DNA of 64,000 bases, from positions 1 through 64,000 of the IMG/VR virus record IMGVR_UViG_3300017917_004576. The stretch is one strand, 5' to 3'. Source of the DNA: a virus. Both the position numbers and the translations under genes were made by a program. Positions within the stretch are counted from its first letter, which is position 1, and every line of letters begins with the position of its first letter. Shown here in pieces: positions 1 to 14,072 of this stretch. The notes under the pieces are model-generated. The model ran no database searches. It saw only the letters and a program-made list of their open reading frames with translations, and was not told where the DNA came from.

Positions 1-8
1 AAAGGTCG

Positions 9-244
9 AAAAATATTTTTGGGATCGTAAGTCTAGTATTTTCAAGGATTTACGATTTTCTCAGTTTGAGACGCGATTCTTGGCACTGTAGCATTTTGCT
101 ACACACTGTAGCATTTTGCACAGCATTTTGCTACACCACCTTTGGGGTCGCTGTAAGTTGTTGTTGCACAAGGGTTTACGTCGAGCGGGGCGGCCCGATT
201 TCGCCGTAAGTCCTTATGGGACAAGGGTTTGCGTCGAGTTCTTA
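9..244. repeat. Composite regulatory repeat module, copy 1
   Basis: A-tract; site A 26-54 (cgtaagtctag-tattttc-aaggatttacg); TCTCAGTTTGAGA 59-71; GCATTTTGC boxes at 91, 111, 123; CCACCTTTGGGGTCG; site B 152-180; site C 205-233. Same order and spacing as copy 2. Confidence 0.9.
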
Positions 245-391
245 GAGAATCGTACCATCCCCCCTAATGCGGTACATGATGCCACCGATACTATACAGGC
301 TAATACCCTCGCCCAAATGGCAAACAAACATAGCCGAATAACCATGAATAGCAATCAATCGTAGCAACGTATTTTCAATTTGAATGGTCAT
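242..391 (-). CDS. Small hypothetical protein, 49 aa (not in ORF track)
   Basis: Read manually: ATG at 391, MTIQIENTLLRLIAIHGYSAMFVCHLGEGISLYSIGGIMYRIRGDGTIL, TAA at 242-244. Begins 4 nt after the stop of the upstream minus-strand gene and ends at the module boundary. Confidence 0.6.
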   Translation of the reverse strand: MTIQIENTLLRLIAIHGYSAMFVCHLGEGISLYSIGGIMYRIRGDGTIL

Positions 392-395
392 GTGT

Positions 396-713
396 TCACT
401 CGTCTCCAATAAAGGGACTCATCTCATCATCTGCGAGGCTAGCATATTGCTCTGCGAGAGCAACCACCCTTTCGGGGGAACCGGGCTTGCCAACTGGAAA
501 ACGCATACGATCCTCACCCCCTACCATGCGGGGGTCAGTCTTTTCGATCTTACTCTTGCCAATCTTTCGCAGAGCGGAACGATTGAACTTCAATACCTTC
601 TCGCTGGTAATCGTACCACCATCAGCGGTACGCTTGTCGCAAGGGATCGCCATACCATAGAAGATACCACGAACTGTACGCTTGTATTCTTCAATGATAG
701 GAAACTTTTCCAT
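396..713 (-). CDS. Hypothetical early protein (about 105 aa, start revised to MEKFP)
   Basis: ORF 396..767 trimmed to ATG 713, which follows a purine-rich leader (AGAAAGAGAGAAAGAAA) and the promoter element at 740-767. Confidence 0.7.
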   Translation of the reverse strand: MEKFPIIEEYKRTVRGIFYGMAIPCDKRTADGGTITSEKVLKFNRSALRKIGKSKIEKTDPRMVGGEDRMRFPVGKPGSPERVVALAEQYASLADDEMSPFIGDE

Positions 714-739
714 TTTCTTTCTCTCTTTCTTGTGTCTTG

Positions 740-767
740 ATTCTACCAAACTTTTCTGTCGCGTCAA
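740..767 (-). promoter_or_regulatory. Sigma70-like promoter (repeated element, copy 1)
   Basis: Minus strand TTGACG-cgacagaaaagtttgg-TAGAAT (16-nt spacer, extended -10 TG). Near-identical copies at 942-969 and 1880-1907. Confidence 0.65.
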
Positions 768-773
768 CCCCTA

Positions 774-917
774 TTAGGCGGGGCATGATGGATCGTCGAT
801 TTCCTCAATAACGCAGTCGCAGTGTTCCCAGCATCGAGGACACAATTCAAGGCCCGCAATGTCGGAAACGATTTCAACACCACAGCAATCCGAATAGTAA
901 ACTTCAATCTTGCTCAT
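774..917 (-). CDS. Small Cys-rich putative zinc-binding protein, 47 aa (not in ORF track)
   Basis: MSKIEVYYSDCCGVEIVSDIAGLELCPRCWEHCDCVIEEIDDPSCPA*; has its own promoter element (942-969) and purine-rich leader. Confidence 0.7.
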   Translation of the reverse strand: MSKIEVYYSDCCGVEIVSDIAGLELCPRCWEHCDCVIEEIDDPSCPA

Positions 918-941
918 TCTTTTCTCTCTTTCTTTTCTATG

Positions 942-969
942 ATCCTACCAAACTTTTCTGTCGCCGCAA
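942..969 (-). promoter_or_regulatory. Sigma70-like promoter (repeated element, copy 2)
   Basis: TTGCGG-cgacagaaaagtttgg-TAGGAT on the minus strand, about 25 nt upstream of ATG 917. Confidence 0.55.
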
Positions 970-972
970 CCC

Positions 973-1179
973 TCACTCTTGGGGGGTCTTGGATTTTTCT
1001 TCTTCTTTCTTCTTTCTCCATTCTGCAACGAATGCAACGTAATCGTCAACCGATCCATCACGGTTGTCCCTATGGTAATCGTATCCATCATCCGAACCGT
1101 ATGGACGGTATGAGGAAGTACGGGAAGCCCGATAGGCTCGGAGGTTAGAAGCAGCACTGCGAAACTTTCTATTCATCAT
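973..1179 (-). CDS. Hypothetical early protein, 68 aa
   Basis: ORF track; preceded by leader AAGAAAGAAAGAAAGAGAG and the -24/-12-like element at 1216-1231. Confidence 0.65.
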   Translation of the reverse strand: MMNRKFRSAASNLRAYRASRTSSYRPYGSDDGYDYHRDNRDGSVDDYVAFVAEWRKKKEEEKSKTPQE

Positions 1180-1215
1180 TCAATCTCTCTTTCTTTCTTT
1201 CTTACCCTATATATA

Positions 1216-1231
1216 TGCACTTACTGTGCCA
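1216..1231 (-). promoter_or_regulatory. Sigma54-like (-24/-12) promoter
   Basis: Minus strand TGGCAC-AGTAA-GTGCA (GG-N10-GC) followed by TATATAT; site A of module 2 starts 25 nt further right (1231 to 1256). Confidence 0.55.
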
Positions 1232-1237
1232 TTCACC

Positions 1238-1475
1238 AAAAAATATTTTTTTCTTCCTAAGTCCTTACGCCACAACACTTTACAACTTTCTCATTTTGAG
1301 ACGGGGGTGTGCCAAGGTGAGGCATTTTGCTACAGGTGACGCATTTTGCTACAGCGTTTTGCTACACCACCTTTGGGGTCGTCGTAAGTGCTTGAACCAT
1401 AAGGAGTTACGTCAAAAATGGCGGCCCAATTTCGCCGTAAGTCCTTACGGGACAAGGGTTTACGTTGAATACTTA
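1238..1475. repeat. Composite regulatory repeat module, copy 2
   Basis: Site A 1256-1284; TCTCATTTTGAGA 1289-1301; boxes at 1322, 1341, 1354; CCACCTTTGGGGTCG; site B 1383-1411; site C 1436-1464. Confidence 0.9.
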
Positions 1476-1666
1476 GAAGAGATTCTTTTCATGTCCTCAC
1501 GATACCTGAACAGTAGTTCACGAGCAGACGCGCGTATACCTTCCTTCAGTATCTCACGAGCACTACCCCTCTCATGAGGGAGTCGTACTTGTGCCTCATG
1601 AAGCCATAGTCGTATGGTACTTGTTTTCATACTCTCGAACGATGATTGAAAGTAATTAGTATCCAT
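1460..1666 (-). CDS. Hypothetical early protein, 68 aa
   Basis: ORF track; abuts the upstream ORF (1667) and ends inside site C of module 2. Confidence 0.6.
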   Translation of the reverse strand: MDTNYFQSSFESMKTSTIRLWLHEAQVRLPHERGSAREILKEGIRASARELLFRYREDMKRISSKYST

Positions 1667-1852
1667 TCAAGCATTCTCCACGATGACACTCACGACCTTG
1701 TCGGCATACATAGACCGATAGCCCACCGTCTCATCGTTCACCAGAATCAACGTTCCCTTGTTGGGAATCTCACGAACGCTAACCAGTTCACCAGTGAACG
1801 ACTCACCGGTACTGTAGACCACACTCAACCTATCGCCAACATTGTAAACCAT
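1667..1852 (-). CDS. Small beta-rich (SH3/Sm-like?) hypothetical protein, 61 aa
   Basis: MVYNVGDRLSVVYSTGESFTGELVSV alternating beta pattern; purine-rich leader and promoter element at 1880-1907. Confidence 0.7.
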   Translation of the reverse strand: MVYNVGDRLSVVYSTGESFTGELVSVREIPNKGTLILVNDETVGYRSMYADKVVSVIVENA

Positions 1853-1879
1853 CTTTTTCTCTCTTTCTTTCTTTCTAGG

Positions 1880-1907
1880 ATTCTACCAAACTTTTCTTCC
1901 GCCACAA
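1880..1907 (-). promoter_or_regulatory. Sigma70-like promoter (repeated element, copy 3)
   Basis: TTGTGG-cggaagaaaagtttgg-TAGAAT on the minus strand. Confidence 0.55.
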
Positions 1908-1925
1908 CCCCCCGACTAGGGGCTA

Positions 1926-2156
1926 TCACTGGATCGCATAATCATCGACCACGTAACCCATTTCATCAATCTGGATGAATCCACCATCATCGCAGAATCC
2001 TAACTCATGATTTATTTCGATCATGTTATCATTCTGACGAACCCTTTCCAGAAGATCGCTAGCAAATGCGACACGATTCACGAACGAATCGAGACGGGTA
2101 TTGTTGAGCAAATCGCACAATTCACGAACCGTATTGAGCACAATCATGTTTTCCAT
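1926..2156 (-). CDS. Hypothetical acidic early protein (about 76 aa, start revised to MENMI)
   Basis: ORF 1926..2231 trimmed to ATG 2156 after AGAAAAAGGATAGATAAG; the longer start overlaps the promoter element. Confidence 0.65.
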   Translation of the reverse strand: MENMIVLNTVRELCDLLNNTRLDSFVNRVAFASDLLERVRQNDNMIEINHELGFCDDGGFIQIDEMGYVVDDYAIQ

Positions 2157-2214
2157 CTTATCTATCCTTTTTCTACTTGTTTCCGAAACCCCTTGTTTCG
2201 ATGCCAGATATATA

Positions 2215-2230
2215 TGCGAATGTCGTACCA
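2215..2230 (-). promoter_or_regulatory. Sigma54-like (-24/-12) promoter
   Basis: Minus strand TGGTAC-GACAT-TCGCA (GG-N10-GC) followed by TATATAT; same 25-nt offset to site A (2230 to 2255) as in copy 2. Confidence 0.5.
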
Positions 2231-2236
2231 TTCGAG

Positions 2237-2367
2237 AAAAAAAATCAGATTTTTCGTAACCCCTTGAAAAATATAGGGTTACAGCATTCTCAATTTGAGA
2301 CGGGGGTAAGGATCACTGTAGCATTTTGCGTCATACTGTAGCATTTTGCACAGCATTTTGCTACACC
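2237..2367. repeat. Composite regulatory repeat module, copy 3 (lacks sites B and C)
   Basis: Site A 2255-2283; TCTCAATTTGAGA 2288-2300; GCATTTTGC at 2321, 2341, 2353; then diverges. Confidence 0.85.
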
Positions 2368-2403
2368 CGCTTAGTAGGGGGGTTTTTTCATTTTCTTTTA
2401 TTT

Positions 2404-2419
2404 TGGCACAGATTTTGCA
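2404..2419 (+). promoter_or_regulatory. Consensus sigma54 promoter sequence, plus strand
   Basis: TGGCAC-AGATT-TTGCA, an exact match to the TGGCAC-N5-TTGC(A/T) consensus. Confidence 0.5.
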
Positions 2420-2479
2420 GAAAACCGGGGGTGGTATAAACATAGTAAGCACCAAATAAAATAAATGTACTACCTAAAC

Positions 2480-3394
2480 CTATCTATTAGCCCCATACCA
2501 TTCTATAGTTTCTTTTAATCCAGCATCAAAATCCACCTTTGGTTCCCAGTTCAGTACCTTTTTGGCTCGTGACATATCAAGAAATCTTCGTGGCTGACCA
2601 TCTGGCTGATCACTATTCCACACTATATTTCCATCGTATCCAATAAGTGCTTTTATTTTTTCTGCCAAATCTTTTATTGTTATTTCAACACCACCGCCCA
2701 AATTAATAGGCTTAGGATCAGTATCTACGCTTAAACTTTTTACTATAGCCTCAGCAGCATCATCCACATATAAAAATTCTCGTGTGGCACTTCCGCTTCC
2801 CCAACATTCCACACTACCGTTGTTATTCGCTTTTGCATCAATAAACTTTTTAATCAAGGCCGGAATAACATGACTACTGCCAGGATCAAAATTATCATTT
2901 GGCCCGTATAAATTACAAGGAACCAATACGCAACCATTTAAATTATATTGATTTTTATAAGCTTCTATCATAACATAAAGAGCTTTTTTAGCTATTCCGT
3001 ACGGAGCATTAGTTTCTTCCGGATATCCGTCCCACAAACTATCCTCATTAAAAGGAACCGGAGTATATTTAGGATAACTACAAACCGTCCCTATCTGCAC
3101 AACCTTTTGTACATCAAAAAATCTACAATTTTCAATAACATTTAATCCCATCATCATATTTTGATAAAAAAATGATCCTGGATTAATCCTATTTGCACCT
3201 ATTCCACCAACCACAGCAGCACAGTGTATCACAGCATCTGGCCGATATCTATCAAAAGCATCCTTAGTTTGCTTAGGATTGCACAAATCAAAATTTCTTG
3301 ATCTGAATGTTGAAGCATCATAACCTTGATCTTTTAGAACTTTCATAATTCTAGACCCTAAAAATCCATTGCCACCAGTAACTAAAACTTTCAT
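2480..3394 (-). CDS. fcl: GDP-L-fucose synthase (GDP-4-keto-6-deoxymannose epimerase/reductase)
   Basis: VTGGNGFLG Rossmann motif, AAVVGGIGAN, GTVCSYPK, YGIAKK (YxxxK), PCNLYGPNDNF, SSHVIPALI, REFLYVDD, PDGQPRR. Confidence 0.93.
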   Translation of the reverse strand: MKVLVTGGNGFLGSRIMKVLKDQGYDASTFRSRNFDLCNPKQTKDAFDRYRPDAVIHCAAVVGGIGANRINPGSFFYQNMMMGLNVIENCRFFDVQKVVQIGTVCSYPKYTPVPFNEDSLWDGYPEETNAPYGIAKKALYVMIEAYKNQYNLNGCVLVPCNLYGPNDNFDPGSSHVIPALIKKFIDAKANNNGSVECWGSGSATREFLYVDDAAEAIVKSLSVDTDPKPINLGGGVEITIKDLAEKIKALIGYDGNIVWNSDQPDGQPRRFLDMSRAKKVLNWEPKVDFDAGLKETIEWYGANR

Positions 3395-3423
3395 ATTATT
3401 TTCCTTATGCTATATGATTAAAT

Positions 3424-3447
3424 AAAAAAGGGGCAACTTAATGCCCC
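3424..3447 (-). terminator. Rho-independent terminator
   Basis: GGGGCA-TTAAGT-TGCCCC followed by a T run on the minus strand, downstream of gene 3481-3717. Confidence 0.6.
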
Positions 3448-3480
3448 AATTTTATTCATAATTTAATTTAGAATTTACGT

Positions 3481-3717
3481 TCAACCATTATCATTGGATG
3501 ATGCAAACGATGCGGGTATTGAGGCGTTTTTATTCTTTGGTTGACGACCTCGTGGCTTTTGAATACCAAGCTTGCGCCTTTGTCGTCGCACCATAGGAGT
3601 AGTAATACTACTATTTGTTATTTGACTCAATCGTACAGCAATCTCATCATCAGAAATAACATTAAAATTATCACGGATAAAATCCAATTCGATCTGACCC
3701 CATTTTCTATAGCTCAT
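3481..3717 (-). CDS. Small putative HTH DNA-binding protein
   Basis: MSYRKWGQIELDFIRDNF...SDDEIAVRLS...VRRQRRKLGI resembles Myb/GcrA-like HTH; GGAGA Shine-Dalgarno before ATG 3717. Confidence 0.6.
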   Translation of the reverse strand: MSYRKWGQIELDFIRDNFNVISDDEIAVRLSQITNSSITTPMVRRQRRKLGIQKPRGRQPKNKNASIPASFASSNDNG

Positions 3718-3743
3718 TTTATTCTCCCCATATAGTGTAAATA

Positions 3744-3771
3744 TTGACAATGTGATGATCAACTCTATTAT
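3744..3771 (+). promoter_or_regulatory. Sigma70-like promoter for the plus-strand operon
   Basis: TTGACA-N16-TATTAT at the divergence point of the two transcription directions. Confidence 0.45.
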
Positions 3772-3807
3772 ACTATAGTTTTGGTTCTTTTAAGCAAGGG
3801 GCTCAAT

Positions 3808-3984
3808 ATGATTAATTTTGATTCTAATATTACCAATCTTACATCTTCGATCTTATCGGTCAAAGCATCAGGATCAATAATTGACCAAATTCAAAATGAT
3901 CTTAATTTACCAGACGGAGACGACATAACCACTCTATTAAATAATGAAGAAAAAAACAAATCAAACCATCAAAGCGGTGAGTGA
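3808..3984 (+). CDS. Hypothetical protein
   Basis: ORF track 3781..3984; ATG 3808 follows AAGGGG. Confidence 0.4.
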   Translation: MINFDSNITNLTSSILSVKASGSIIDQIQNDLNLPDGDDITTLLNNEEKNKSNHQSGE

Positions 3985-4585
3985 CGACGAATTTTTAGCC
4001 GTTTTAGATAAAATTACTAAAAGATTAGCTCACAAATTTAAATTCGGCTATCATAGCATAGAGGATATGAAACAACAAGCGGCCATATTCGCACTAGAAG
4101 GATTAAAAAATTATGATCACAAAAGGCCCCTTGAAAACTTTTTGTGGACTCATGTACGAAATCGCTTATTTAATTACAAAAGAAATAACTATCAAAGACC
4201 CGACAAACCTTGCTTAACTTGTCCGCTATATGATGCTTCTTATAAAGTTTCTAATAATCAGTGCTCTAAATTTATTGACAAAAAGGAGTGTGAGCCATAT
4301 GCTTCGTGGGCCAAACGAAATGATGCTAAAAAGAATATTGCTAAACCATCTTATTTTGAAGACTTAAATTTAGCATCATCATCTAATGGTTCTCACGAGC
4401 ATAACGAGATAGTTAATTTTCTTGACAAAAATATCCGCTCAGACTATAGAGAAAGTTATCTAAAACTAAAACACAATCAAAAAATTAACAAGTCTGATCT
4501 TAACAAACTTAAAAAACACATTATGGAAATAATGGAGGAACACAATTGGAAAACAGCAGAATTCCCAAAAAACGAGGACAACTAA
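3944..4585 (+). CDS. Phage RNA polymerase sigma-factor-like protein with Cys-rich insert
   Basis: Region-2-like EDMKQQAAIFALEGLKNYDHKRPLENFLWTHVRNRLFNYKR, then CLTC...C...C. Confidence 0.7.
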   Translation: MKKKTNQTIKAVSDDEFLAVLDKITKRLAHKFKFGYHSIEDMKQQAAIFALEGLKNYDHKRPLENFLWTHVRNRLFNYKRNNYQRPDKPCLTCPLYDASYKVSNNQCSKFIDKKECEPYASWAKRNDAKKNIAKPSYFEDLNLASSSNGSHEHNEIVNFLDKNIRSDYRESYLKLKHNQKINKSDLNKLKKHIMEIMEEHNWKTAEFPKNEDN

Positions 4586-5376
4586 GTTTAGATGAAGAAG
4601 CTTATATTCGTGAGAATGTTAATTTATTAAGCATAGATGCTATAGCCTCTAATCTTAATCGTCACGAAGGACCAATTAAACGATATATTAATGAAAATAA
4701 TTTACTAATTGATCCAGAAGACAAAGCGGCTTATGAAACTCTAAAAGATAAATTACATAGCAAAACCTTTTGGATAGAAATTACACGTCAGTTTGATGCT
4801 GACAGTGGCGAACTCCAATACTTTGAAGATACCTGGGTTGGACTAATAAAACAGTTTAGAGAAGATGTTTTACCAGCAGAAGAGTTGCAAATTAAACAAT
4901 TTATCACTATTGATATATTAATTAATCGCAGCATGAAAGAACGAAAAAGACACATTAGTGAAACTGAAAAATTACAAAAACTTGTGGATAAAGAATATGA
5001 AAAAAGCGAGGATCAAAGAGATATACCGAAACTGGCTAATCTCGAAACTCAATTGTCGTTTGCCCGCAACAGTATCGCTAATTACACTAATGAATATACC
5101 AAACTTCTTAATGAACAACAGAAAATTAGTAAAGATCTTAAAGCTACTAGGGAACAAAGAATAAAAAGAATAGAAGATGGTAAAAGTAGTTGGGTTGGTT
5201 TAATACGAATGCTAGAAGACGAAATAGTAAGAGAAAAAGAAGGCAAAGAAATGGAAATTCTTGGAATGGCAGCAACCGGAGCCAAAGAAAGAATGCAACA
5301 ATATCATACTTATCAAGACGACACTGTGGACGTACCATTACTAACACCAGAATTTATGGAAAATCACAATGAATAA
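4546..5376 (+). CDS. Coiled-coil protein with N-terminal HTH-like segment; possible terminase small subunit
   Basis: 276-aa ORF, HTH-like N-terminus, long coiled coil, upstream of TerL. Function is positional inference only. Confidence 0.4.
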   Translation: MENSRIPKKRGQLSLDEEAYIRENVNLLSIDAIASNLNRHEGPIKRYINENNLLIDPEDKAAYETLKDKLHSKTFWIEITRQFDADSGELQYFEDTWVGLIKQFREDVLPAEELQIKQFITIDILINRSMKERKRHISETEKLQKLVDKEYEKSEDQRDIPKLANLETQLSFARNSIANYTNEYTKLLNEQQKISKDLKATREQRIKRIEDGKSSWVGLIRMLEDEIVREKEGKEMEILGMAATGAKERMQQYHTYQDDTVDVPLLTPEFMENHNE

Positions 5377-6361
5377 AACAGCTATAATAACAGGCATTAC
5401 TGGTCAAGATGGCAGCTATCTAGCCGAACTATTATTAGAAAAAGATTACAAAGTTGTTGGATTATATCGACGTAGTAGTTCGTACCATTTTGAAAGAATA
5501 TCCAGCATAGTAGATCATCCTAATTTAACTCTTTTGGAATTTGATCTTACAGATCCTTCCGTAATACTATCCATATTAAAACAATACGAACCAGACGAAT
5601 TCTATAACTTGGCCGCTATGAGTCATGTGGGAACCAGTTTTCACCAGCCCTCCACAACGTTTGATATTAATACCATGGGGGTTTTACATATTTTAGAGGG
5701 TATAAGAACCACATCATCTGCTACAAAATATTATCAAGCTAGCACTAGCGAAATGTTTGGTAAAAATTATAGTGTTGATAAAAATAATAACAAATATCAA
5801 GATGAAAATACTCCACTAATTCCACAAAGTCCGTATGCTGTTAGCAAAGTTGCTAGTCATAATTTGGTACGCATATATCGTGATGCTTATAATATTTTTG
5901 CTACTAGTGGCATACTATTTAATCATGAAAGTCCGCGCCGTGGTGAAAATTTTCTAACGCGAAAAGTTACCAAATATATTGGCCAATTAGTTAACAACAA
6001 AACATCAGACAATTTAAAACTTGGTAATCTTCAAGCTTACAGAGACTGGGGTCACGCTAAAGATTATGTATATGCTATGTATTTGATGCTACAGCAAGAT
6101 GTTCCTGACGACTTTGTTATTTGTACCGGTCAAACTCATAGCGTATTAAATTTTGTTATCAAATCCTTTGAGAGTGTGGATTTGGACTACAAACAATATG
6201 TAGAAATTGATCCATCATTATATCGACCAGCAGAAGTTGACTATTTATGTGGCCGATCTCTTAAAGCTCAAAAAGTACTAGGATGGATTCCATCAACTTC
6301 TTTTGATGATTTAGTTAGCGAAATGATACAAAGCGATATTAAAGTTTACGCTAATGTTTAG
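5369..6361 (+). CDS. gmd: GDP-mannose 4,6-dehydratase
   Basis: ITGITGQDGSYLAELLL, YNLAAMSHV, YQASTSEMFG, SPYAVSK, GILFNHESPRRG, RDWGHAKDYV, RPAEVDYL. Confidence 0.96.
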   Translation: MNKTAIITGITGQDGSYLAELLLEKDYKVVGLYRRSSSYHFERISSIVDHPNLTLLEFDLTDPSVILSILKQYEPDEFYNLAAMSHVGTSFHQPSTTFDINTMGVLHILEGIRTTSSATKYYQASTSEMFGKNYSVDKNNNKYQDENTPLIPQSPYAVSKVASHNLVRIYRDAYNIFATSGILFNHESPRRGENFLTRKVTKYIGQLVNNKTSDNLKLGNLQAYRDWGHAKDYVYAMYLMLQQDVPDDFVICTGQTHSVLNFVIKSFESVDLDYKQYVEIDPSLYRPAEVDYLCGRSLKAQKVLGWIPSTSFDDLVSEMIQSDIKVYANV

Positions 6362-6632
6362 AAATTATAATGATCCATTATACAAAACTTTTAGACAACA
6401 GGTTAAAAAACGAGATCAATACAAATGTCAATGGCCAGGATGTTTAGCATCCAAAAAATTACATGTTCATCATATCAAAAGATGGGTTGATAGCGTTGAT
6501 TTGAGATATAATATAAATAACGGAATCACTTTGTGTAAATTTCATCACTCTCTTATAGAAGGAAACGAAAACGCATACGAAGCAGTTTTTAGCAAATTAA
6601 TATCTGATAATAAAAAATCAAATGATAAATAA
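6354..6632 (+). CDS. HNH endonuclease
   Basis: RDQYKCQWPGC...LHVHHIKRW...NINNGITLCKFHH. Confidence 0.85.
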   Translation: MFRNYNDPLYKTFRQQVKKRDQYKCQWPGCLASKKLHVHHIKRWVDSVDLRYNINNGITLCKFHHSLIEGNENAYEAVFSKLISDNKKSNDK

Positions 6633-7110
6633 TGAAGACTTTACGATCATAATAGATACCAGAGAGCAACAACCGTGGTCTTTTGAGGATTATGTGGTTG
6701 CTAATAAAAAATTAGATACTGGCGATTATAGCATAGAAGGTCTTCAGGACATTTTTGCTATAGAACGTAAAAAGAGCATAAATGAAATTGCTAACAATAT
6801 TATTGAACCACGGTTCAAAGATGTTGTACATAGAATGAGCCAACTTAAATATTCATTTTTCCTATTAGAATTTAGCATGAATGATGTATTAAACTATCCT
6901 ATAGGATCAAATCTACCAAAAAGAATGTGGGATAAAGTTAGAATTACTCCAGCATTTATAATGAAGAATATATTAGATTGGCAGCTTAAATACGATATTA
7001 AAGTATTATTTTGTAATAATGCATCTAATGCAGAAAAAGTAGCAGAATATATTATTAAAAGGATTTACCTCATAAACAATAAACCAAAGGAGAACCAAAA
7101 TGAAACTTGA
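6622..7110 (+). CDS. ERCC4-domain (XPF/Mus81-like) nuclease
   Basis: IIIDTREQ, LDTGDYS and AIERK motifs of the ERCC4 fold. Confidence 0.85.
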   Translation: MINNEDFTIIIDTREQQPWSFEDYVVANKKLDTGDYSIEGLQDIFAIERKKSINEIANNIIEPRFKDVVHRMSQLKYSFFLLEFSMNDVLNYPIGSNLPKRMWDKVRITPAFIMKNILDWQLKYDIKVLFCNNASNAEKVAEYIIKRIYLINNKPKENQNET

Positions 7111-7669
7111 AAATTCAGTCACCATCTATCCGCCACCGTATACTGATCAAAATAATCAATTAATTAATCCACCACCATTGGTTATGGACTATCTAGATGT
7201 TACTTATCATGACAATCCCACCAATAAGATAGTTTCCGCTACAGTTAGAAATATTCCTGGCTCATTTGTTATTGCTAATGGTATTGATTATGAAAAGCTT
7301 GGAGATGTTAATAGGTCCACACTAGAACAACTACTATATGATAGTCTCAAAGACGATACCGTAACCAAGCTCAGAAGCAAATTTCCCAAAACCTTAGAAG
7401 AATTTCCTAATGGCCCAGGAACCATATTAACAAATATGATTAGCACAATGGGAATTAAAAGTACTCCAAATTGTTCTTGCAGACGCCATGCTATAGAAAT
7501 GAACGAAAAAGGTAATGACTGGTGCGAACAAAATTTACCAACTATCCTAGGTTGGCTAAAAGAAGAAAGCGCAAAAAGAAGCTTGCCATATATTGAGTCT
7601 GTAGCATCTATGATAGTTAAAAGAGCGATAAAAACTTCTAGAAGATTAATAAAGCAATCTAATGGTTGA
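7100..7669 (+). CDS. Hypothetical protein with C-terminal Cys motif
   Basis: GPGT...CSCRRHAIEMNEKGNDWC...ILGWLKEES; overlaps both neighbours. Confidence 0.7.
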   Translation: MKLENSVTIYPPPYTDQNNQLINPPPLVMDYLDVTYHDNPTNKIVSATVRNIPGSFVIANGIDYEKLGDVNRSTLEQLLYDSLKDDTVTKLRSKFPKTLEEFPNGPGTILTNMISTMGIKSTPNCSCRRHAIEMNEKGNDWCEQNLPTILGWLKEESAKRSLPYIESVASMIVKRAIKTSRRLIKQSNG

Positions 7670-9689
7670 TTTTAAAAGTTTTGATAATGCTTGGCTTGGA
7701 CTAGGAGACATAAGCGCTCTTAGTATTCCTAATAATCCTATGATTCATAGGACCAAGGAAGATATAGAAAATCCAGACTTGCATCTATTAAGAATTTTAA
7801 GAAATCCATATTATATAGGATCAACCTGTAAACTTATTTTTAACATAGAATTACATCCTATGCAGACTATGGTTCTACAAGAAATGTGGAATCGTCCTTT
7901 TCCTATGCTTATTGGTAGTCGTGGTTTTAGTAAAAGCTTTTTATTGGCTCTATATGCGGTACTAAAGTGTGCTTTCTATCCAGGCACCAAGGTAGTTATA
8001 GTTGGCGCCGCTTTTAGACAAAGCAAAATTATCTTTGAATATATGGAAAATATGTGGAAAAATAGTCCTATTTTAAGAAGTATATTTAATGGCAATGAAG
8101 ATGGTCCACGACGAGATGTTGATAGATGTACTATAAGACTTGGAGATAGTTGGGCTATAGCTATTCCTTTAGGTAATGGTGATAAAATTAGAGGTTTACG
8201 TGCCCATATTATTTTAGCAGATGAGTTTAGTAGTATATCTCCAGATATTTACGAGACTGTGGTGTCCGGCTTTGCTGCTGTTAGCGCTAGCCCAATTCAG
8301 AATGTTAAGGAAGAAGCTAAAAAAGCAGCTATGAAATTAGCAGGAGTGTGGAGCGAAGAACTAGATACTATTTCTAGAAGAATTAATAATCAAGCAGTGA
8401 TAAGCGGAACAGCAGACTATGGTTTCAAACATTTTGCTCAGTACTGGAAAAGATATAAGAGTATTATAGAAAGTAAAGGTGAAGAAAGAAAATTACGAGA
8501 AATTTTTAATGGAGAAATTCCACCAAATTTTAATTGGAAAGATTATAGTATTATTCGTATACCATATGAATTAATACCTAAAGGATTTATGGATGATAAA
8601 CAAGTAAGTAGAGCCAAAGCTACTATTCATGTTGGTATATATAATATGGAATATGCTGCATGTTTTGTGAATGACAGTCAAGGATTTTTTAGAAGAAGTT
8701 TGATAGAAAGTTGTGTTACAAAAGATTATCCAGCAATAACAATTGGTAATAAGCCAGTAGTTTTTGACGCTATAACTCAAGGTAATCCTAATTTACATTA
8801 TGTTTATGGTATCGATCCTGCTAGTGAACAAGATAATTTTAGTATAGTAATATTAGAAGTTCATCCGGATCATTCTAGAATAGTATATTGTTGGGCAACA
8901 AATAGAAATAATTTTAAAGAAAGACAAAAGATTGGACTAGCACAAGAATATGACTTTTATAGTTTTTGTTCTAGAAAAATTAGAGATCTTATGAAAACCT
9001 TTCCTCCTATTAGGATAGGGATGGATGCTCAAGGAGGTGGTGTTGCAATAGAAGAAGCTTTACATGATCCTGGTAAGCTTCAAGATAATGAACAACTAAT
9101 ATGGCCAATTATTGATTATGACAAAGCAAAAGATACTGATTCTCAACAAGGTCTACACATTCTGGAACTAGTGCAATTTGCAAAGGCAGATTGGACAAGT
9201 CAAGCTAATCATGGATTAAGAAAAGATCTAGAGGATAAAATATTACTATTTCCACGTTTTGATAATCTTACACTTGGTCTTGCTATGGAAAAAGAAGGAA
9301 AAAATATCTTAGACGACGATTTAAATCCATTGTATGATAGTGTTAGTGAATGCATACTAGAAATAGAAGAACTTAAAAATGAATTAACAACTATAGTTAT
9401 GACTCAAACTAGTACTGGTCCACAAGCAAGAGACAGATGGGATACTCCGGAAGTAAAATTACCAAATGGTAAAAAAGGAAGATTACGAAAAGACCGATAT
9501 AGCTCATTACTAATAGCTAATATGATAGCTAGACAATTAAATAGAATCTTACAGTCTCCAAATTATGATATTGTTGGCGGAAATAGTAAAGATCTAGTTA
9601 ATCAACAAAGCAATAAGTTATATAAAGGTCCAGAATGGTTCACATCAAACGTTAATGATGATGATATTTATCAAGGAATTTATAGATAA
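7662..9689 (+). CDS. terL: Terminase large subunit
   Basis: ELHPMQ adenine-binding motif, Walker A GSRGFSKS, IRGLRAHIILADEF Walker B, coupling motif ISGTA, RNase H-like YGIDPA and KDRYSS. Confidence 0.9.
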   Translation: MVDFKSFDNAWLGLGDISALSIPNNPMIHRTKEDIENPDLHLLRILRNPYYIGSTCKLIFNIELHPMQTMVLQEMWNRPFPMLIGSRGFSKSFLLALYAVLKCAFYPGTKVVIVGAAFRQSKIIFEYMENMWKNSPILRSIFNGNEDGPRRDVDRCTIRLGDSWAIAIPLGNGDKIRGLRAHIILADEFSSISPDIYETVVSGFAAVSASPIQNVKEEAKKAAMKLAGVWSEELDTISRRINNQAVISGTADYGFKHFAQYWKRYKSIIESKGEERKLREIFNGEIPPNFNWKDYSIIRIPYELIPKGFMDDKQVSRAKATIHVGIYNMEYAACFVNDSQGFFRRSLIESCVTKDYPAITIGNKPVVFDAITQGNPNLHYVYGIDPASEQDNFSIVILEVHPDHSRIVYCWATNRNNFKERQKIGLAQEYDFYSFCSRKIRDLMKTFPPIRIGMDAQGGGVAIEEALHDPGKLQDNEQLIWPIIDYDKAKDTDSQQGLHILELVQFAKADWTSQANHGLRKDLEDKILLFPRFDNLTLGLAMEKEGKNILDDDLNPLYDSVSECILEIEELKNELTTIVMTQTSTGPQARDRWDTPEVKLPNGKKGRLRKDRYSSLLIANMIARQLNRILQSPNYDIVGGNSKDLVNQQSNKLYKGPEWFTSNVNDDDIYQGIYR

Positions 9690-9691
9690 AA

Positions 9692-9697
9692 GTGTAT
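9692..9697 (+). promoter_or_regulatory. Putative late promoter motif GTGTAT (representative copy)
   Basis: Recurs before gene starts at 9692, 11928, 16919, 27336, 32731, 36308 and 60736. Confidence 0.6.
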
Positions 9698-9743
9698 TAT
9701 TAAAGTAATCAAATAGCATTACTATTACATTAGAAATAAATAT

Positions 9744-11945
9744 ATGCCCAGAAAACCAAATAAAGAAGACGTTATTAAAAATGCATCATCTATAGGAGAG
9801 GATGCTTATGTCACATGGGGAGAGGATTTATCCAGCAAACAAGATGCTCTTAAAAGATCATCAGAATCTCTAGATGAGTTTACAGGAATTCAAAATTCTA
9901 CAGCAGCTTTTGGCGGTGGTAGAAGATATAGTATAGATTTTTCTAATTTAGATGGTGATACTGGTGGCCGTCCAGGATTAACCCGTAATGACTACTATGC
10001 TTTTAGGCCAGACGAAGCTGTTCCTAAAAGGATTAAACTAGTTATCCGAAGAGCAGAAGATATTTATCATCGTGTTGGTTTGGTAAAAAACGTGATTGAT
10101 CTCATGGGCGATTTTGCTGTACATGGTATTAAATTAGTTCATAAAAATAAAAGAATAGAAAGATTTTATAGACAATGGTTCAAAAAAATTAATGGCAAAG
10201 ATCGTAGCGAAAGATTTTTAAACAATCTATACAAAACAGGCAATATTGTTATTCATAAACAAACAGCCAAAATATCATTAAAAGTTACTGATAATCTATA
10301 TAAAACTATTGGATCTCCTGATCTTAATGTCAAGCAGATGGATCAATTTAAGATAGAAAAAAAAGAAATTCCTTGGAGATATACTTTTATAGATCCAGTT
10401 TATGTTGAGAGTGCTGCCGGGTCTTTATCATCATTTGTTAGTGAGAAAAGATACGAATTAATTTTACCAGCTACTTTTAGAAAAAATATTAATAGTCCAA
10501 AAACAGAAGCAGAAAAACAGATAGTATCTCTTCTTCCAGAAGCAATAGTATTAGCAGCTAAAACTAAAAGACCATATCCATTGGATCCTGAAAAGACATT
10601 AGTTTTTCATTACAAAAAAGACGATTGGCAAGCATGGGCATATCCTATGATATATGCTATTATGGATGATATTACGGTTATTGAGAAATTAAAATTAGCA
10701 GATATGGCGGCCCTAGATGGCGCTATAAGTAACATTAGAATTTTCAAATTAGGTAATCTAGAACATAAAATTGCTCCAACAAAAGCAGCAACAGCCAAAC
10801 TAGCACAAATTTTAGGAAACAATGTTGGTGGTGGTACAATGGATTTGGTTTGGGGTCCAGATATTGAATTGTTAGAAAGCAATACTAATGTTCATAATTT
10901 TCTTGGAGAAGGTAAATATACTCCTCATTTAAATGCTATCTATGCTGGTTTGGGAATTCCTCCAACACTTACTGGCACATTCGGAGCAGCAGGAACTACT
11001 AATAATTTTATTAGTCTAAAAACCTTAACACAAAGATTACAATATGGTAGAGATATGTTGGTTAAATTTTGGGAAGGCGAAATAGAAATTGTACAAAAAG
11101 CTATGGGTTTTAGGTATCCGGCTAAAATAGAATTTGATAGAATGGATCTAAGTAATGAAGATACAGAGAAGGCACTATTAATACAACTAGCAGATAGAAG
11201 TCTTATTAGTGATGAGTTATTACAGACCAAATTTGGTTTCGATCCAGATATGGAAAAATCAAGACTTAATAGAGAAAGAAAAGAAAGAGATTCCGAAAGA
11301 ATGGTACAAAAAGCTGGTCCGTGGCATGATCCTCAATTTGAAAACGCTCTTAAGAAAATATCTTTACAACTAGGAATTGTAACACCAAGTCAAGTAGGAT
11401 TAGATTTACCAAAGAAAAAACCAAGCGAAAAAACAGCATTAGAACAAAAAGCAGAACAAGTAAAGTCTCCTTTTGGAGCACCCAAGGTGGCTAACGATCC
11501 GTCCTCGGAATCGTTGCCGAAAGAAGCGGGCGAAGGTAGACCCAAACTTTCAAAAGATACTGAAAAAAGAAAAGACAGAACATTTTCGCCCCAAACCGGC
11601 GCCAAACTCCTAATATGGTCATCTTCTGCACAAGACAAGATTAGTTCTATAATTAATCCATTAATTTTAGAATATTTTGATAAGAAAAATTTAAGAAGTT
11701 TATCTAATGCCGAAAATGAAGAATTAGAGAAAATCAAAACGAACATTCTTTTTCAAACGCAACCTTTTGCTAAACTTAATGAAGATAATATAACAGAATA
11801 TTTATCAGCATCAACTAGTAATGATACTAAAACTTTTTATAATTGGTTAAATTTGGTTAAGCTAGAATTATCCAGAGAATTAACGGTTGATGAAATTAAA
11901 CAAGCTAAATCATCTTTTTACACAATGGTGTATAGTACAAAATAA
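9744..11945 (+). CDS. Portal protein
   Basis: Directly after TerL; GLVKNVIDLMGDFA, clip-like HYKKDDWQAWAYP, IYAGLGIPPTL, charged C-terminal extension. Confidence 0.8.
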   Translation: MPRKPNKEDVIKNASSIGEDAYVTWGEDLSSKQDALKRSSESLDEFTGIQNSTAAFGGGRRYSIDFSNLDGDTGGRPGLTRNDYYAFRPDEAVPKRIKLVIRRAEDIYHRVGLVKNVIDLMGDFAVHGIKLVHKNKRIERFYRQWFKKINGKDRSERFLNNLYKTGNIVIHKQTAKISLKVTDNLYKTIGSPDLNVKQMDQFKIEKKEIPWRYTFIDPVYVESAAGSLSSFVSEKRYELILPATFRKNINSPKTEAEKQIVSLLPEAIVLAAKTKRPYPLDPEKTLVFHYKKDDWQAWAYPMIYAIMDDITVIEKLKLADMAALDGAISNIRIFKLGNLEHKIAPTKAATAKLAQILGNNVGGGTMDLVWGPDIELLESNTNVHNFLGEGKYTPHLNAIYAGLGIPPTLTGTFGAAGTTNNFISLKTLTQRLQYGRDMLVKFWEGEIEIVQKAMGFRYPAKIEFDRMDLSNEDTEKALLIQLADRSLISDELLQTKFGFDPDMEKSRLNRERKERDSERMVQKAGPWHDPQFENALKKISLQLGIVTPSQVGLDLPKKKPSEKTALEQKAEQVKSPFGAPKVANDPSSESLPKEAGEGRPKLSKDTEKRKDRTFSPQTGAKLLIWSSSAQDKISSIINPLILEYFDKKNLRSLSNAENEELEKIKTNILFQTQPFAKLNEDNITEYLSASTSNDTKTFYNWLNLVKLELSRELTVDEIKQAKSSFYTMVYSTK

Positions 11946-11972
11946 TAATCAAATCTTTTTGAAAGGTTTATA

Positions 11973-13568: not shown

Positions 13569-13590
13569 ATTCTTATACGGAGAACTAAAA

Positions 13591-14049: not shown

Positions 14050-14072
14050 TTTTCATACACGGAGAAATAAAT

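What the first reader, a model, noticed from the sequence alone, without database searches (positions are those of the whole stretch)
26..2283. Seven 11-7-11 inverted-repeat sites: recombinase core sites for a cassette array, or paired IHF-like sites
Seen: seven 29-bp sites with consensus CGTAAGTCCTT-N7-AAGGGTTTACG at 26, 152, 205, 1256, 1383, 1436 and 2255. Arms are conserved, the 7-nt spacers vary (site C spacers atgggac/acgggac are nearly identical), and B to C spacing is 53 nt in both full modules. Gene blocks stop at the outer edge of site C (stops at 242 and 1460). Established: tyrosine recombinase core sites are about 11-bp inverted arms around a 6-8 bp overlap, and IHF sites contain CAA-N4-TTR, which the half-sites also resemble. 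Inference: the region could be an integron/pdif-like shufflable array in which roughly 1-kb gene blocks are gained or lost at these sites. No recombinase is encoded in this window.
Basis: partly seen in the sequence, partly recalled or inferred. Interest (0 to 1): 0.75.

Follow-up and report, generated by a model that had tools for sequence, protein, structure and literature searches.

The report
Protein-docking boundary sites between phage cassettes
The seven palindromes are real and belong to a rigid boundary element that separates blocks of small early genes in many uncultured freshwater phages; they look like docking sites for a DNA-bending protein beside promoters, not like cut-and-paste sites for a recombinase.

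Summary
All seven sites exist at the stated coordinates. Four match the strict consensus (0 expected by chance); the three "A" sites are degenerate. They lie in a 46%-GC array of small minus-strand genes at the start of a 32%-GC, 120-kb phage contig.

B and C form a rigid 82-bp dyad unit: 29 + 24 + 29 nt, starts 53 nt apart. I found it in 27 distinct units of 10 related contigs, in over 120 IMG/VR stretches (201 distinct units) and in 7 phage-like MAG contigs.

Variable positions do not co-vary, either within a site or between B and C. There is no consensus fold and no strand bias in fold stability, which points to protein docking on DNA. Each half reads YAA-N4-TTR, with TT/AA steps 9 bp apart, like a symmetrised IHF site.

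C usually abuts the upstream stop codon. B or A sits upstream of the next promoter, which is sigma70-type or a sigma54-type box with an enhancer-like module.

I found no tyrosine or serine recombinase in six related contigs, one rated complete. Spacers almost never match. Natural deletion joints fall in promoter or ribosome-binding-site repeats, not in the sites.

Closest known: PeSL cassettes of T4-type phages. This scan has noted similar elements in other phage DNA. Binding is untested.

The parts
26..54 (.). Site A1 (degenerate 11-7-11 site)
   Evidence: 2 mismatches to the loose pattern. The homologous module in G003 places it 24 nt from a sigma54-type box.
59..73 (.). TCTCA-N-TTTGAGACG palindrome, module 1
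   Evidence: three copies, found only in the array.
87..135 (.). Three TGnnGCA-TTT-TGCTACA boxes (enhancer-like 7-3-7 palindromes), module 1
152..180 (.). Site B1
181..204 (.). 24-nt GC-rich linker of unit 1
   Evidence: the consensus core is GGCCGGCC in 201 units.
205..233 (.). Site C1; the upstream gene's stop lies 8 nt beyond it
   Evidence: Contigs of four runs diverge at 235/237.
242..391 (-). Small ORF g1 (49 aa); absent or replaced in relatives
   Evidence: joint 240->420.
396..713 (-). Small ORF g2 (105 aa)
740..767 (-). Sigma70-type promoter TTGACG-16-TAGAAT, preceded by a CCCC..GGGG stem-loop (PeSL-like)
   Evidence: direct-repeat family D3.
774..917 (-). Small ORF g3 (47 aa, Cys-rich)
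   Evidence: joint 756->914.
942..969 (-). Sigma70-type promoter, copy 2
973..1179 (-). Small ORF g4 (68 aa); absent in G003, G004 and run X2
   Evidence: joint 934->1215.
1216..1231 (-). Sigma54-type -24/-12 box TGGCAC-N5-GTGCA
   Evidence: 6 hits in the window against 0.93 expected.
1256..1284 (.). Site A2, 24 nt upstream of the sigma54-type box (centre about -65 from the inferred start)
1289..1303 (.). TCTCA-N-TTTGAGACG palindrome, module 2
1318..1366 (.). Three enhancer-like boxes, module 2
1383..1411 (.). Site B2, 16 nt from the last enhancer-like box
1412..1435 (.). 24-nt linker of unit 2
1436..1464 (.). Site C2; the stop codon of g5 lies inside its outer arm
1460..1666 (-). Small ORF g5 (68 aa)
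1667..1852 (-). Small ORF g6 (61 aa)
1880..1907 (-). Sigma70-type promoter, copy 3
1926..2156 (-). Small ORF g7 (76 aa from the ATG at 2156)
2215..2230 (-). Sigma54-type box TGGTAC-N5-TCGCA
2255..2283 (.). Site A3 (degenerate), 24 nt upstream of the box
2288..2302 (.). TCTCA-N-TTTGAGACG palindrome, module 3
2317..2365 (.). Enhancer-like boxes, module 3; this module lacks B and C and ends the array
2404..2419 (+). Perfect sigma54-type box TGGCAC-N5-TTGCA on the + strand at the array border

Best explanation
The 29-bp sites are dyad-symmetric docking sites for a DNA-binding protein. The protein is most likely an IHF/HU-type DNA bender of the host, or else an unidentified phage early protein. The sites are built into composite boundary cassettes of a hyperplastic early-gene array. 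B and C, joined by a GC-rich 24-nt linker, form one rigid 82-bp dyad unit. It sits directly after the stop codon of one gene block and upstream of the promoter of the next. That promoter is either sigma70-type or a sigma54-type -24/-12 box with an enhancer-like module, in which a third site (A) sits about 65 nt upstream of the inferred start. Inferred mechanism: the bound protein bends the DNA in helical phase (B-C 53 nt, A-B 126/127 nt). This would shape the upstream promoter DNA and may insulate neighbouring transcription units. Gene blocks are shuffled between phages by ordinary homologous recombination at any conserved regulatory repeat, whether the 82-bp unit, promoters or purine-rich leaders, as described for PeSL cassettes. 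No site-specific recombinase is needed. Shown here: the anatomy, distribution, lack of pairing covariation, positions relative to genes and promoters, absence of recombinase genes, and joint positions. Inferred: protein binding, identity of the binder, bending, and effect on transcription.
For: (1) Protein-site signature. In 63 distinct sites from 10 related contigs, T3A4A5, T10T11, A19, T25T26 and R27 are invariant or nearly so. The variable arm positions pair no better than shuffled arm combinations: 486 Watson-Crick pairs against 488.8 +/- 7.2 overall, and 115 against 123 at positions 6-9. Ninety mismatches are transversion-type.
(2) The same holds for B:C pairing. In 27 units, pairs number 501 against 506.9 shuffled. 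In 201 units from more than 120 viral stretches, spacer:spacer pairing is 29% (z -3), and the mid-arm positions within B or C pair less than shuffled (z -3.5 and -7.6).
(3) RNAalifold finds no consensus structure on either strand. Mean fold energies are -25.5 (+ strand) and -24.5 (- strand) kcal/mol, and the + strand is the more stable in 110 of 201 units.
(4) Rigid geometry. The 53-nt B-C spacing holds in every one of 27, then 55, then 201 distinct units. Conservation extends symmetrically about 6 nt beyond each site.
(5) IHF-like geometry. Y18A19A20-N4-T25T26R27 and its mirror image are present in about 57-63 of 63 sites. The TT and AA steps are 9 bp apart, with TTR 5-6 bp from the nearer step. 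Passages of PMC5829579 give kink sites about 9 bp apart and TTR 6 bp from the nearest kink.
(6) Placement. C lies -5 to +15 nt from the upstream stop codon in 18 of 27 units, and -5 to +1 nt in 78 of 155 units of the wide set. A lies 24 nt from sigma54-type boxes. B lies 22-46 nt from minus-strand sigma54-type boxes in 7 units and 19-82 nt from sigma70 -35 boxes.
(7) Shuffling is not tied to the sites. None of the 12 ends of the six array joints lies in a site; most lie in promoter or RBS repeats. HSP ends are enriched at promoter/leader classes: 19% against 5.6% of bases, and 14% against 2.7%.
(8) No PF00589 or PF00239 domain in six contigs.
(9) PeSL precedent (PMC2839356 passages, PMC4122927 abstract).
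Against: No binding protein is identified. PF00216 (HU/IHF) is absent from all six phage contigs searched, and the host is unknown. The match to the E. coli IHF consensus is partial: C at position 18 in only 32 of 63 sites, G at the mirrored position 12 in 25 of 63, and no WATC part.
Single units do fold into a long B:C hairpin better than shuffles (z -2.9 to -7.0). Their position right after stop codons is what a terminator would show. In the 201-unit set, the inner arms and linker core show some excess complementarity with more than one pair type (z 4.3 and 2.2), and so do the outermost ends (z 4.1). Symmetric protein binding predicts this, but so does a central hairpin.
HSP ends are also enriched in site spacers (6.5% against 1.3% of bases), so crossovers inside site C cannot be excluded.
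Sigma54-type boxes on the + strand point at B from 7-12 nt in 6 of 55 units. This model does not explain them.
Confidence: 0.55

Rival explanations
1. The 82-nt B-linker-C unit acts as a nucleic-acid hairpin. It would be a transcription terminator, attenuator or 3'-end stabiliser of the upstream gene block, possibly bidirectional, like the stem-loop part of PeSLs. The conserved bases would be kept by gene conversion among copies or by an RNA-binding protein.
For: Both window units fold into one long hairpin better than shuffles on both strands (z -2.9 to -7.0). The unit abuts the stop codon of the upstream gene. The inner arms are reverse complements in consensus, and the linker has a GGCCGGCC core. 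There is some excess complementarity with alternative pair types at columns 22-24:59-61 and 39-40:43-44. PeSL stem-loops are shown terminators (PMC2839356 passages).
Against: RNAalifold finds no consensus structure. Spacers pair in 29% and mid outer-arm positions in 34% of cells, both below shuffled values. Invariant positions pair while variable ones do not, which is the reverse of structural selection. A U tail for the gene-strand RNA is present in only 38 of 201 units, and a T run on the other strand in 55 of 201. Site A occurs alone, upstream of the inferred start, where it would not be in its own transcript.
Confidence: 0.2
2. The sites are recombination sites: double-stranded 11-7-11 cores for a Xer-like tyrosine recombinase, or, with B and C folded together, an attC-like single-stranded site. 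A host-encoded recombinase would use them to excise and insert gene blocks.
For: The 11-7-11 geometry fits. Cassettes are co-oriented with the element at their 3' end. Folded B:C gives two duplex boxes around an unpaired 7 x 7 spacer, reminiscent of the R box - UCS - L box of attC (PMC5027507 passages). Site C is a mosaic boundary in several comparisons, and HSP ends are enriched in spacers. Gene content is mosaic between relatives.
Against: No PF00589 or PF00239 domain in this contig or in five related ones, including one rated 100% complete. Identical spacers occur in 0 of 21, 0 of 105, 0 of 153 and 2 of 153 site pairs within an array. There is no conserved AAC/GTT triplet and no length asymmetry that would give extrahelical bases. 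Fold stability shows no strand bias. Cassettes carry their own promoters. None of 12 joint ends lies in a site; joints lie in promoter or RBS repeats that lack such sites. Divergence points lie on all four outer edges of B and C, not on one defined side.
Confidence: 0.07
3. The unit is a small non-coding RNA gene on the strand opposite to the cassette genes, driven by the sigma54-type boxes that point at site B.
For: TGGCAC-N5-TTGCT boxes lie 7-12 nt from B and point into it in 6 of 55 distinct units. G.T mismatches outnumber A.C at outer-arm columns 6-8 (104/25, 67/8, 60/5). A T run follows C in 55 of 201 units.
Against: Only a minority of units have such a box, and neither window unit does. 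There is no consensus fold, no covariation and no strand bias in stability. No Rfam family matches.
Confidence: 0.05

Closest known systems
PeSL (promoter-early stem-loop) mobile regulatory cassettes of T4-type phages (Arbiol et al. 2010, PMC2839356, passages read; Comeau et al. 2014, PMC4122927, abstract read)
   Same: Both are short conserved composite terminator/promoter-type elements between small ORFan genes in a hyperplastic early region. Both have strong sigma70-type promoters with A/T-rich upstream DNA and GGGG..CCCC stem-loops; here these lie at 740-771, 942-973 and 1880-1911. In both, indels and replacements between relatives have junctions in these elements and in the region between the ribosome-binding site and the -10 box. 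No dedicated recombinase is known in either case.
   Different: This array has an additional, much larger and rigid element: an 82-bp dyad of two 29-bp sites with invariant TAA/TT/AA/TTA blocks and unpaired variable spacers. It also has sigma54-type boxes with enhancer-like palindromes. The phage is not T4-like by its terminase (best tblastn identity 22-25%). The array is about 13 points richer in G+C than the rest of the genome.
IHF binding sites, including the IHF site between enhancer and promoter of sigma54-dependent promoters
   Same: YAA-N4-TTR element; TT/AA steps 9 bp apart; TTR 5-6 bp from the nearer step (PMC5829579 passages). Site A is centred about 65 nt upstream of the inferred start, between enhancer-like boxes and a -24/-12 box. 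That this is the usual place for IHF is recalled textbook knowledge.
   Different: The consensus is present in both halves (symmetric site), whereas E. coli IHF sites are asymmetric. The WATC part is missing. Sites come in rigid pairs 53 nt apart, also upstream of sigma70 promoters. Binding is untested and the host is unknown.
Integron attC sites (PMC5027507, passages read)
   Same: A co-oriented cassette array with an imperfect palindromic element at the 3' end of each block. The folded form would give two boxes around an unpaired spacer and a variable GC-rich tip.
   Different: No IntI or other tyrosine recombinase. No RYYYAAC/GTTRRRY boxes. No extrahelical bases, because both arms have exactly equal length. 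No strand bias. Cassettes have their own promoters. Joints are not at a fixed point of the element.
Conserved untranslated repeat regions of the T5 first-step-transfer region (Davison 2020, bioRxiv 10.1101/866236, passages read)
   Same: Highly conserved palindromes and repeats embedded in an otherwise poorly conserved early region, proposed to bind host DNA-binding proteins (DnaA, perhaps IHF and FIS).
   Different: The T5 repeats are a few large non-coding regions, not a unit repeated at every cassette border. There is no sequence similarity and no DnaA boxes here.

Membership tests
Tyrosine-recombinase core site (dif/pdif/lox type) | Two inverted arms of about 11-13 bp around a 6-8 bp spacer | tested here: met
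   11-7-11 in all 63 sites. However, the best-conserved bases are the outer TAA/TTA blocks and the inner TT/AA steps.
Tyrosine-recombinase core site (dif/pdif/lox type) | Partner sites share the spacer (overlap) sequence; this requirement is recalled general knowledge | tested here: not met
   Identical spacers in 0 of 21 (window), 0 of 105, 0 of 153 and 2 of 153 site pairs within arrays. There are 132 and 129 distinct B and C spacers in 201 units.
Tyrosine-recombinase core site (dif/pdif/lox type) | A cognate recombinase is available | tested here: not met
   PF00589 absent from G000 and from G002, G006 (100% complete), G007, G008 and G009. PF00239 absent from G000, G002, G006, G008 and G009. 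A host enzyme cannot be tested because the host is unknown.
Tyrosine-recombinase core site (dif/pdif/lox type) | Recombinant junctions fall in the spacer | tested here: inconclusive
   None of 12 joint ends lies in any site. But 15 of 232 blastn HSP ends fall in spacers (6.5% against 1.3% of bases), which the conserved arms flanking variable spacers would also produce.
Integron attC | Conserved R' RYYYAAC / R'' GTTRRRY with the AAC triplet | tested here: not met
   The outer boxes read YSTAAG / CTTASR. No conserved AAC/GTT at the ends (definition from PMC5027507 passages).
Integron attC | Extrahelical bases and strand-asymmetric folding of the bottom strand | tested here: not met
   B and C are both exactly 29 nt and the linker is symmetric. 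Fold energies are -25.5 against -24.5 kcal/mol, with the + strand better in 110 of 201 units.
Integron attC | Unpaired central spacer between two paired boxes | tested here: met
   In a folded B:C form the two 7-nt spacers pair in only 29% of cells. This is an analogy of shape only.
Integron attC | Integron integrase and promoterless cassettes | tested here: not met
   No PF00589 domain. Cassettes carry sigma70-type or sigma54-type promoter motifs.
IHF/HU-type bending site | Consensus WATCAA-N4-TTR | tested here: inconclusive
   YAA-N4-TTR is present in both halves in about 57-63 of 63 sites. C of CAA is present in 32 of 63 and the WAT part is absent.
IHF/HU-type bending site | Two kink positions about 9 bp apart, with TTR about 6 bp from a kink | tested here: met
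   The T10T11 and A19A20 steps are 9 bp apart, and T25 is 5-6 bp from the AA step. The reference values come from PMC5829579 passages. That kinks would occur at these steps is inference.
IHF/HU-type bending site | Binding and bending by the protein | not testable with these tools
   No HU/IHF gene in six phage contigs. The host is unknown.
PeSL-type regulatory cassette | Sigma70-like early promoter plus an adjacent stem-loop, repeated between ORFans of a hyperplastic region | tested here: met
   Three copies of CCCC..GGGG + TTGnnG-16-TAGrAT + purine leader. The small ORFs have no Pfam family, and PHROG matches are no better than E 0.003.
PeSL-type regulatory cassette | Indel and replacement junctions between relatives lie in the elements | tested here: met
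   Joints 756->914, 934->1215 and 972->1926. HSP ends are enriched at the promoter/leader classes.
PeSL-type regulatory cassette | The stem-loop is a working terminator | not testable with these tools
   Only contigs, not raw strand-specific reads, were available.
Intrinsic (Rho-independent) terminator | G+C-rich hairpin followed by a U run | tested here: not met
   A U tail for the gene-strand RNA in 38 of 201 units, and a T run on the other strand in 55 of 201. The scan of 1-4000 lists no terminator at the units.
Sigma54-dependent promoter module (context of site A) | GG-N10-GC box TGGCAC-N5-TTGCW | tested here: met
   Boxes at 1216-1231(-), 2215-2230(-) and 2404-2419(+). There are 6 hits in the window against 0.93 expected, and 3 of the 6 lie in the first 2.4 kb. 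GG and GC are kept while the N5 varies in relatives.
Sigma54-dependent promoter module (context of site A) | An enhancer-binding AAA+ activator and RpoN are available | tested here: not met
   PF00158 absent from six phage contigs. Host proteins cannot be tested.

The most novel reading that the evidence does not exclude
The 82-bp dyad unit (two symmetrised IHF-like sites around a GGCCGGCC core, often faced or followed by sigma54-type boxes) is an undescribed, widespread class of phage boundary element. It would dock host architectural proteins, and perhaps idle sigma54 holoenzyme, to insulate and time dozens of early-gene cassettes, while also serving as the portable homology patch that lets unrelated freshwater phages trade those cassettes. 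A bolder version is that the folded unit is an attC-like substrate for a host recombinase.
Probability: 0.2. Interest if true: 0.75.

Novelty: new variant of a known kind. Interest (0 to 1): 0.5.

Why it matters
If the reading holds, many uncultured freshwater phages organise a 10-15 kb early "takeover" region with one rigid protein-docking element. That element would mark the end of each gene block and prepare the next promoter, including promoters with the signature of the host's sigma54 polymerase. I did not find sigma54-type promoter arrays described for phage early regions in two literature searches. This would extend the PeSL idea, that regulatory cassettes double as recombination patches, beyond T4-type phages. 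It also gives a concrete 29-bp/82-bp motif for finding such regions and their borders in metagenomes. For the question asked, it cautions that 11-7-11 geometry alone does not identify a recombinase site.

Tried and rejected
Rfam scan of 1-3000 at E up to 10: only two chance snoRNA hits on the minus strand.

blastn of 1-2450 against cultured phage records: no match. Terminase tblastn: only 22-25% identical hits, so there is no cultured relative.

Assembly chimera as the cause of the 46% against 32% G+C step: rejected. The same step and array occur inside or at the end of every related contig, and G012:C44 shows a ~15-kb array with low-GC DNA on both sides.

N4-type hairpin promoter reading of TCTCA-AAN-TGAGA: dropped, because nothing further supported it.

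CRISPR-like mini-array reading (repeat, 24 nt, repeat): dropped. B and C are about 69% alike as direct repeats by my own count on the sequences, and 24 nt is shorter than the CRISPR spacers I recall.

Fis, CRP and NarL consensus comparisons from memory did not fit and were not tested.

Mutual-information scan of 27 units: no column pairs in a helical register.

Host identification: the genome-contig scan gave 7 MAG contigs with mixed taxon labels (Gammaproteobacteria, Nitrospinaceae, Methylococcaceae, Hyphomicrobium, Burkholderiaceae, Planctomycetota, 'bacterium'). All looked like phage arrays, so they give no host call.

RNA evidence: one metatranscriptome run (X15) has contigs over much of 192-2394 and little over 2401-3000. 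These are contigs, their ends coincide with ends seen in DNA runs, DNA may be present in the library, and uncovered parts prove nothing. I therefore draw no conclusion on transcription, strand or ends. Runs X2 to X14 and X16 to X21 hold only parts of the stretch (shares 0.05-0.41); X22 and X23 hold next to none of its words. Only X1, X2, X4 and X15 were laid.

The open-frame test of which strand carries a gene next to each of 201 units was too permissive (99 units scored 'both'). I used it only for the stop-distance distribution.

Structure prediction, complex prediction and protein homology searches of the small ORFs were not run. Supplementary files of the papers were not opened and may hold PeSL alignments relevant to the comparison.

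Full report
**Setting.** The window is the first 64 kb of a 120,068-bp IMG/VR virus record, classed as linear and about 82% complete. The first ~2.4 kb are 46% G+C and the rest about 32%. All plausible genes in this stretch are small (47-105 aa) and lie on the minus strand. They have purine-rich leaders and no Pfam family; the best PHROG match is E 0.003. To the right lie a GDP-sugar epimerase-like gene, a sigma-factor-like gene, a terminase and tail genes. No cultured phage is close.

**Observation.** All seven sites are at the stated coordinates.
- The strict consensus with up to 3 mismatches finds four of them (152, 205, 1383, 1436). None is expected by chance, and there are no others in the whole contig.
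- The three A-type sites are degenerate and need a looser pattern. Its hits elsewhere in the window are at chance level: 17 found against 8.7 expected, with 7 of them, including all four perfect ones, in the first 2.3 kb.
- The sites are parts of a ~230-nt module repeated three times. The order is: A/T tract, site A, a TCTCA-N-TTTGAGACG palindrome, three TGnnGCA-TTT-TGCTACA boxes, CCACCTTTGGGGTCG, site B, a 24-nt GC-rich linker, and site C.
- The third module lacks the last four parts and ends the array. None of these motifs occurs elsewhere in the 120 kb.

**Relatives.** A 28-nt piece of the module and the short palindrome led to ten related IMG/VR contigs carrying the same array.
- The G+C step and the array recur in all of them. 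The array is usually at a contig end, which I attribute to assembly breaks in repeats.
- One MAG contig shows about 15 kb of array with low-GC DNA on both sides. The region is therefore a real, internal, hyperplastic part of these genomes and not a chimera.
- A pattern for the B-C pair then hit 7 MAG contigs in 185,579 species genomes, all phage-array-like.
By my own estimate the pattern carries about 49 bits, so chance hits are not expected.

**What the sites are.**
- From the ten related contigs I collected 63 distinct sites. T3A4A5, T10T11, A19(A20), T25T26 and R27 are invariant or nearly so. Positions 6-9, 21-24 and the 7-nt spacer vary.
- If the palindrome served as a hairpin, the variable arm positions should co-vary. 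They do not. There are 486 Watson-Crick pairs against 488.8 +/- 7.2 when arms are re-dealt among sites, and 115 against 123 at positions 6-9. Ninety of the mismatches are transversion-type.
- The sites mostly occur as B-C pairs with starts exactly 53 nt apart (27 distinct units).
- Single units fold as one long B:C hairpin better than shuffles (z -2.9 to -7.0). But RNAalifold finds no consensus structure on either strand, and B:C pairing is no better than with the C of another unit (501 against 506.9).
- In 201 distinct units from the wide scan, the two spacers pair in 29% of cells (z -3) and outer-arm mid positions in 34% (z -2.2). Mid-arm positions within B or within C pair less than shuffled (z -3.5 and -7.6).
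- Excess complementarity is seen only at the outermost ends (z 4.1), the inner arms (z 4.3) and the linker core (z 2.2). This means symmetry about the centre of the whole unit.
- Fold energies show no strand preference: -25.5 against -24.5 kcal/mol, with the + strand better in 110 of 201 units.
- Conservation continues symmetrically about 6 nt outside each site, and the linker core is GGCCGGCC.
- Tails expected of intrinsic terminators are present in only 19-27% of units.
- Taken together, bases are conserved at fixed positions, the geometry is rigid, variable positions stay unpaired, and there is no strand bias. This is the signature of a symmetric protein-DNA site and not of an RNA or cruciform element. 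A central hairpin is not excluded.

**Which protein.** Each half reads YAA-N4-TTR. The TT and AA steps are 9 bp apart, and TTR starts 5-6 bp from the AA step. Passages of PMC5829579 state that IHF kink sites are about 9 bp apart and that the TTR element is 6 bp from the nearest kink. The site thus looks like an IHF consensus made symmetric. The match is partial, with C of CAA in 32 of 63 sites and no WATC part. No HU/IHF gene is found in six phage contigs. The binder would therefore be a host protein or an unrecognised small phage protein. This step is inference.

**Context.**
I checked this.
- TGGCAC-N5-GTGCA at 1216-1231(-), TGGTAC-N5-TCGCA at 2215-2230(-) and a perfect TGGCAC-N5-TTGCA at 2404-2419(+) are 3 of 6 matches in the window, against 0.93 expected. 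In relatives GG and GC stay while the N5 changes.
- Site A lies 24 nt from the box in modules 2 and 3 and in the G003 copy of module 1. This places it about 65 nt upstream of the inferred start, between the box and the enhancer-like palindromes. From general knowledge, that is where IHF sits in sigma54 promoters.
- No AAA+ activator domain is encoded by the six contigs.
- Elsewhere in the arrays the B-C unit precedes sigma70-type promoters, with the -35 box 19-82 nt from B, or minus-strand sigma54-type boxes 22-46 nt from B in 7 of 55 units.
- On its other side, C lies -5 to +15 nt from the stop of the upstream gene in 18 of 27 units, with the stop inside the CGTAA arm in 8. It lies -5 to +1 nt in 78 of 155 units of the wide set.
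- In 6 of 55 units a sigma54-type box on the opposite strand points at B from 7-12 nt. I cannot explain this.
- The window also holds three small PeSL-like elements, each a CCCC..GGGG stem-loop plus TTGnnG-16-TAGrAT.

**Are the sites recombination sites?**
- No tyrosine recombinase domain was found in this contig or in G002, G006 (177,880 bp, rated 100% complete), G007, G008 and G009. No serine recombinase domain was found in G000, G002, G006, G008 and G009.
- Spacers, which by general knowledge tyrosine recombinases need to be alike in partner sites, are identical in 0 of 21 pairs here and in 0 of 105, 0 of 153 and 2 of 153 pairs in three relatives. Orthologous C sites of close relatives differ in 2-4 of 7 spacer bases.
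- Gene content is indeed mosaic.
- Contigs of four public runs (three DNA, one RNA library) give six joints in the array: 238->376, 240->420, 319->920, 756->914, 934->1215 and 972->1926. None of their 12 ends lies in a 29-bp site. Two lie 5-7 nt outside C1, and most lie in promoter, leader or start-codon repeats.
- Of the 24 listed divergence points, 13 lie at the outer edges of A2, B2, C1 or C2, on all sides. The rest lie at promoters and leaders (49 more rows were not shown).
- Of 232 blastn HSP ends, 45 and 33 fall in the two promoter/leader classes (19% and 14%, against 5.6% and 2.7% of bases). Fifteen fall in spacers (6.5% against 1.3%) and 10 in arms (4.3% against 4.1%). The spacer enrichment is expected where conserved arms flank a free spacer, so it is not decisive.
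- The folded unit resembles an attC in outline, with two boxes around an unpaired spacer and a variable tip. But it lacks the RYYYAAC/GTTRRRY boxes, extrahelical bases, strand asymmetry, an integrase and promoterless cassettes.
- I conclude that the cassettes move by homologous exchange at any conserved regulatory repeat. This is what was shown for PeSLs, including crossovers between the ribosome-binding site and the -10 box (PMC2839356 passages; PMC4122927 abstract).

**Novelty and prior notes.**
- My literature searches found PeSLs, IHF, attC and T5 repeat regions. A search combining sigma54, phage-encoded, enhancer-binding protein and early genes gave 6 listed papers, and none of their titles or abstract starts describes such arrays. 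I did not search for the motif itself.
- Notes of this scan on other genomes describe the same grammar or close analogues and reach similar verdicts. They are unchecked AI notes, not independent evidence.
- I file the finding as a new variant of the PeSL kind, with an untested IHF-like docking function.

Noticed in passing
window 1216-1231(-), 2215-2230(-), 2404-2419(+): Sigma54-type -24/-12 boxes. Three of the six matches in the 64-kb window (0.93 expected) lie in the first 2.4 kb. The + strand box is a perfect consensus and points at the 3' end of the convergent epimerase-like gene.
   Followed up: partly
window 87-135, 1318-1366, 2317-2365: Three 17-bp 7-3-7 palindrome-like boxes (TGnnGCA-TTT-TGCTACA) per module, with centres 19 and 13 nt apart, about 120-155 nt upstream of the inferred start. 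They look like enhancer (UAS) sites, but no AAA+ activator is encoded by the phage contigs.
   Followed up: partly
window 1-2400 against 2401-64000: The early array is about 13 points richer in G+C (46% against 32%) than the rest of the genome. The same step is seen in every relative examined (42-48% against 30-35%). I have no explanation.
   Followed up: partly
window 714-771, 916-973, 1854-1911: Three copies of a PeSL-like element on the minus strand: a CCCC..GGGG stem-loop, TTGnnG-16-TAGrAT with TG before the -10 box, and a GAAAGAGAGAAA-type leader. Two natural deletion joints (756->914, 972->1926) lie in or next to them.
   Followed up: yes
L136 1741-1758 and 2349-2366: A compact everted palindrome CCTTACA-N4-TGTAAGG just upstream of perfect sigma70 promoters in a related MAG contig. 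It uses the same YGTAAG hexamer as the arms of the 29-bp sites, in the opposite arrangement.
   Followed up: no
G003 (L021 reverse complement) 4018-4033; G008 and G009; L136 883, 3347; G012:C44 15974: Sigma54-type boxes on the strand opposite to the genes, 7-12 nt from site B and pointing into the unit (6 of 55 distinct units). Unexplained.
   Followed up: partly
L038 3975-5108 (G004): The closest relative (96% identical over window 2485-6459) has about 1.1 kb of extra sequence between the last module and the epimerase-like gene. Contigs of runs X2 and X15 also diverge from the window at 2394.
   Followed up: no
G012:C44 (L143+L144) about 3000-18000: The only contig that shows both borders of an array. 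The array is about 15 kb, all genes are on one strand, and there are eight B-C pairs 1.3-2.9 kb apart, with low-GC DNA on both sides.
   Followed up: partly
window 3944-4585: A 213-aa protein with a weak Sigma70_r2 match (E 2e-4, below the Pfam cut-off), just beyond the array.
   Followed up: no
window 774-917(-): A 47-aa Cys-rich ORF (CC..C..C..C.C) conserved at 86-95% nucleotide identity in several relatives but at different places in their arrays. It may be a zinc-ribbon protein.
   Followed up: no
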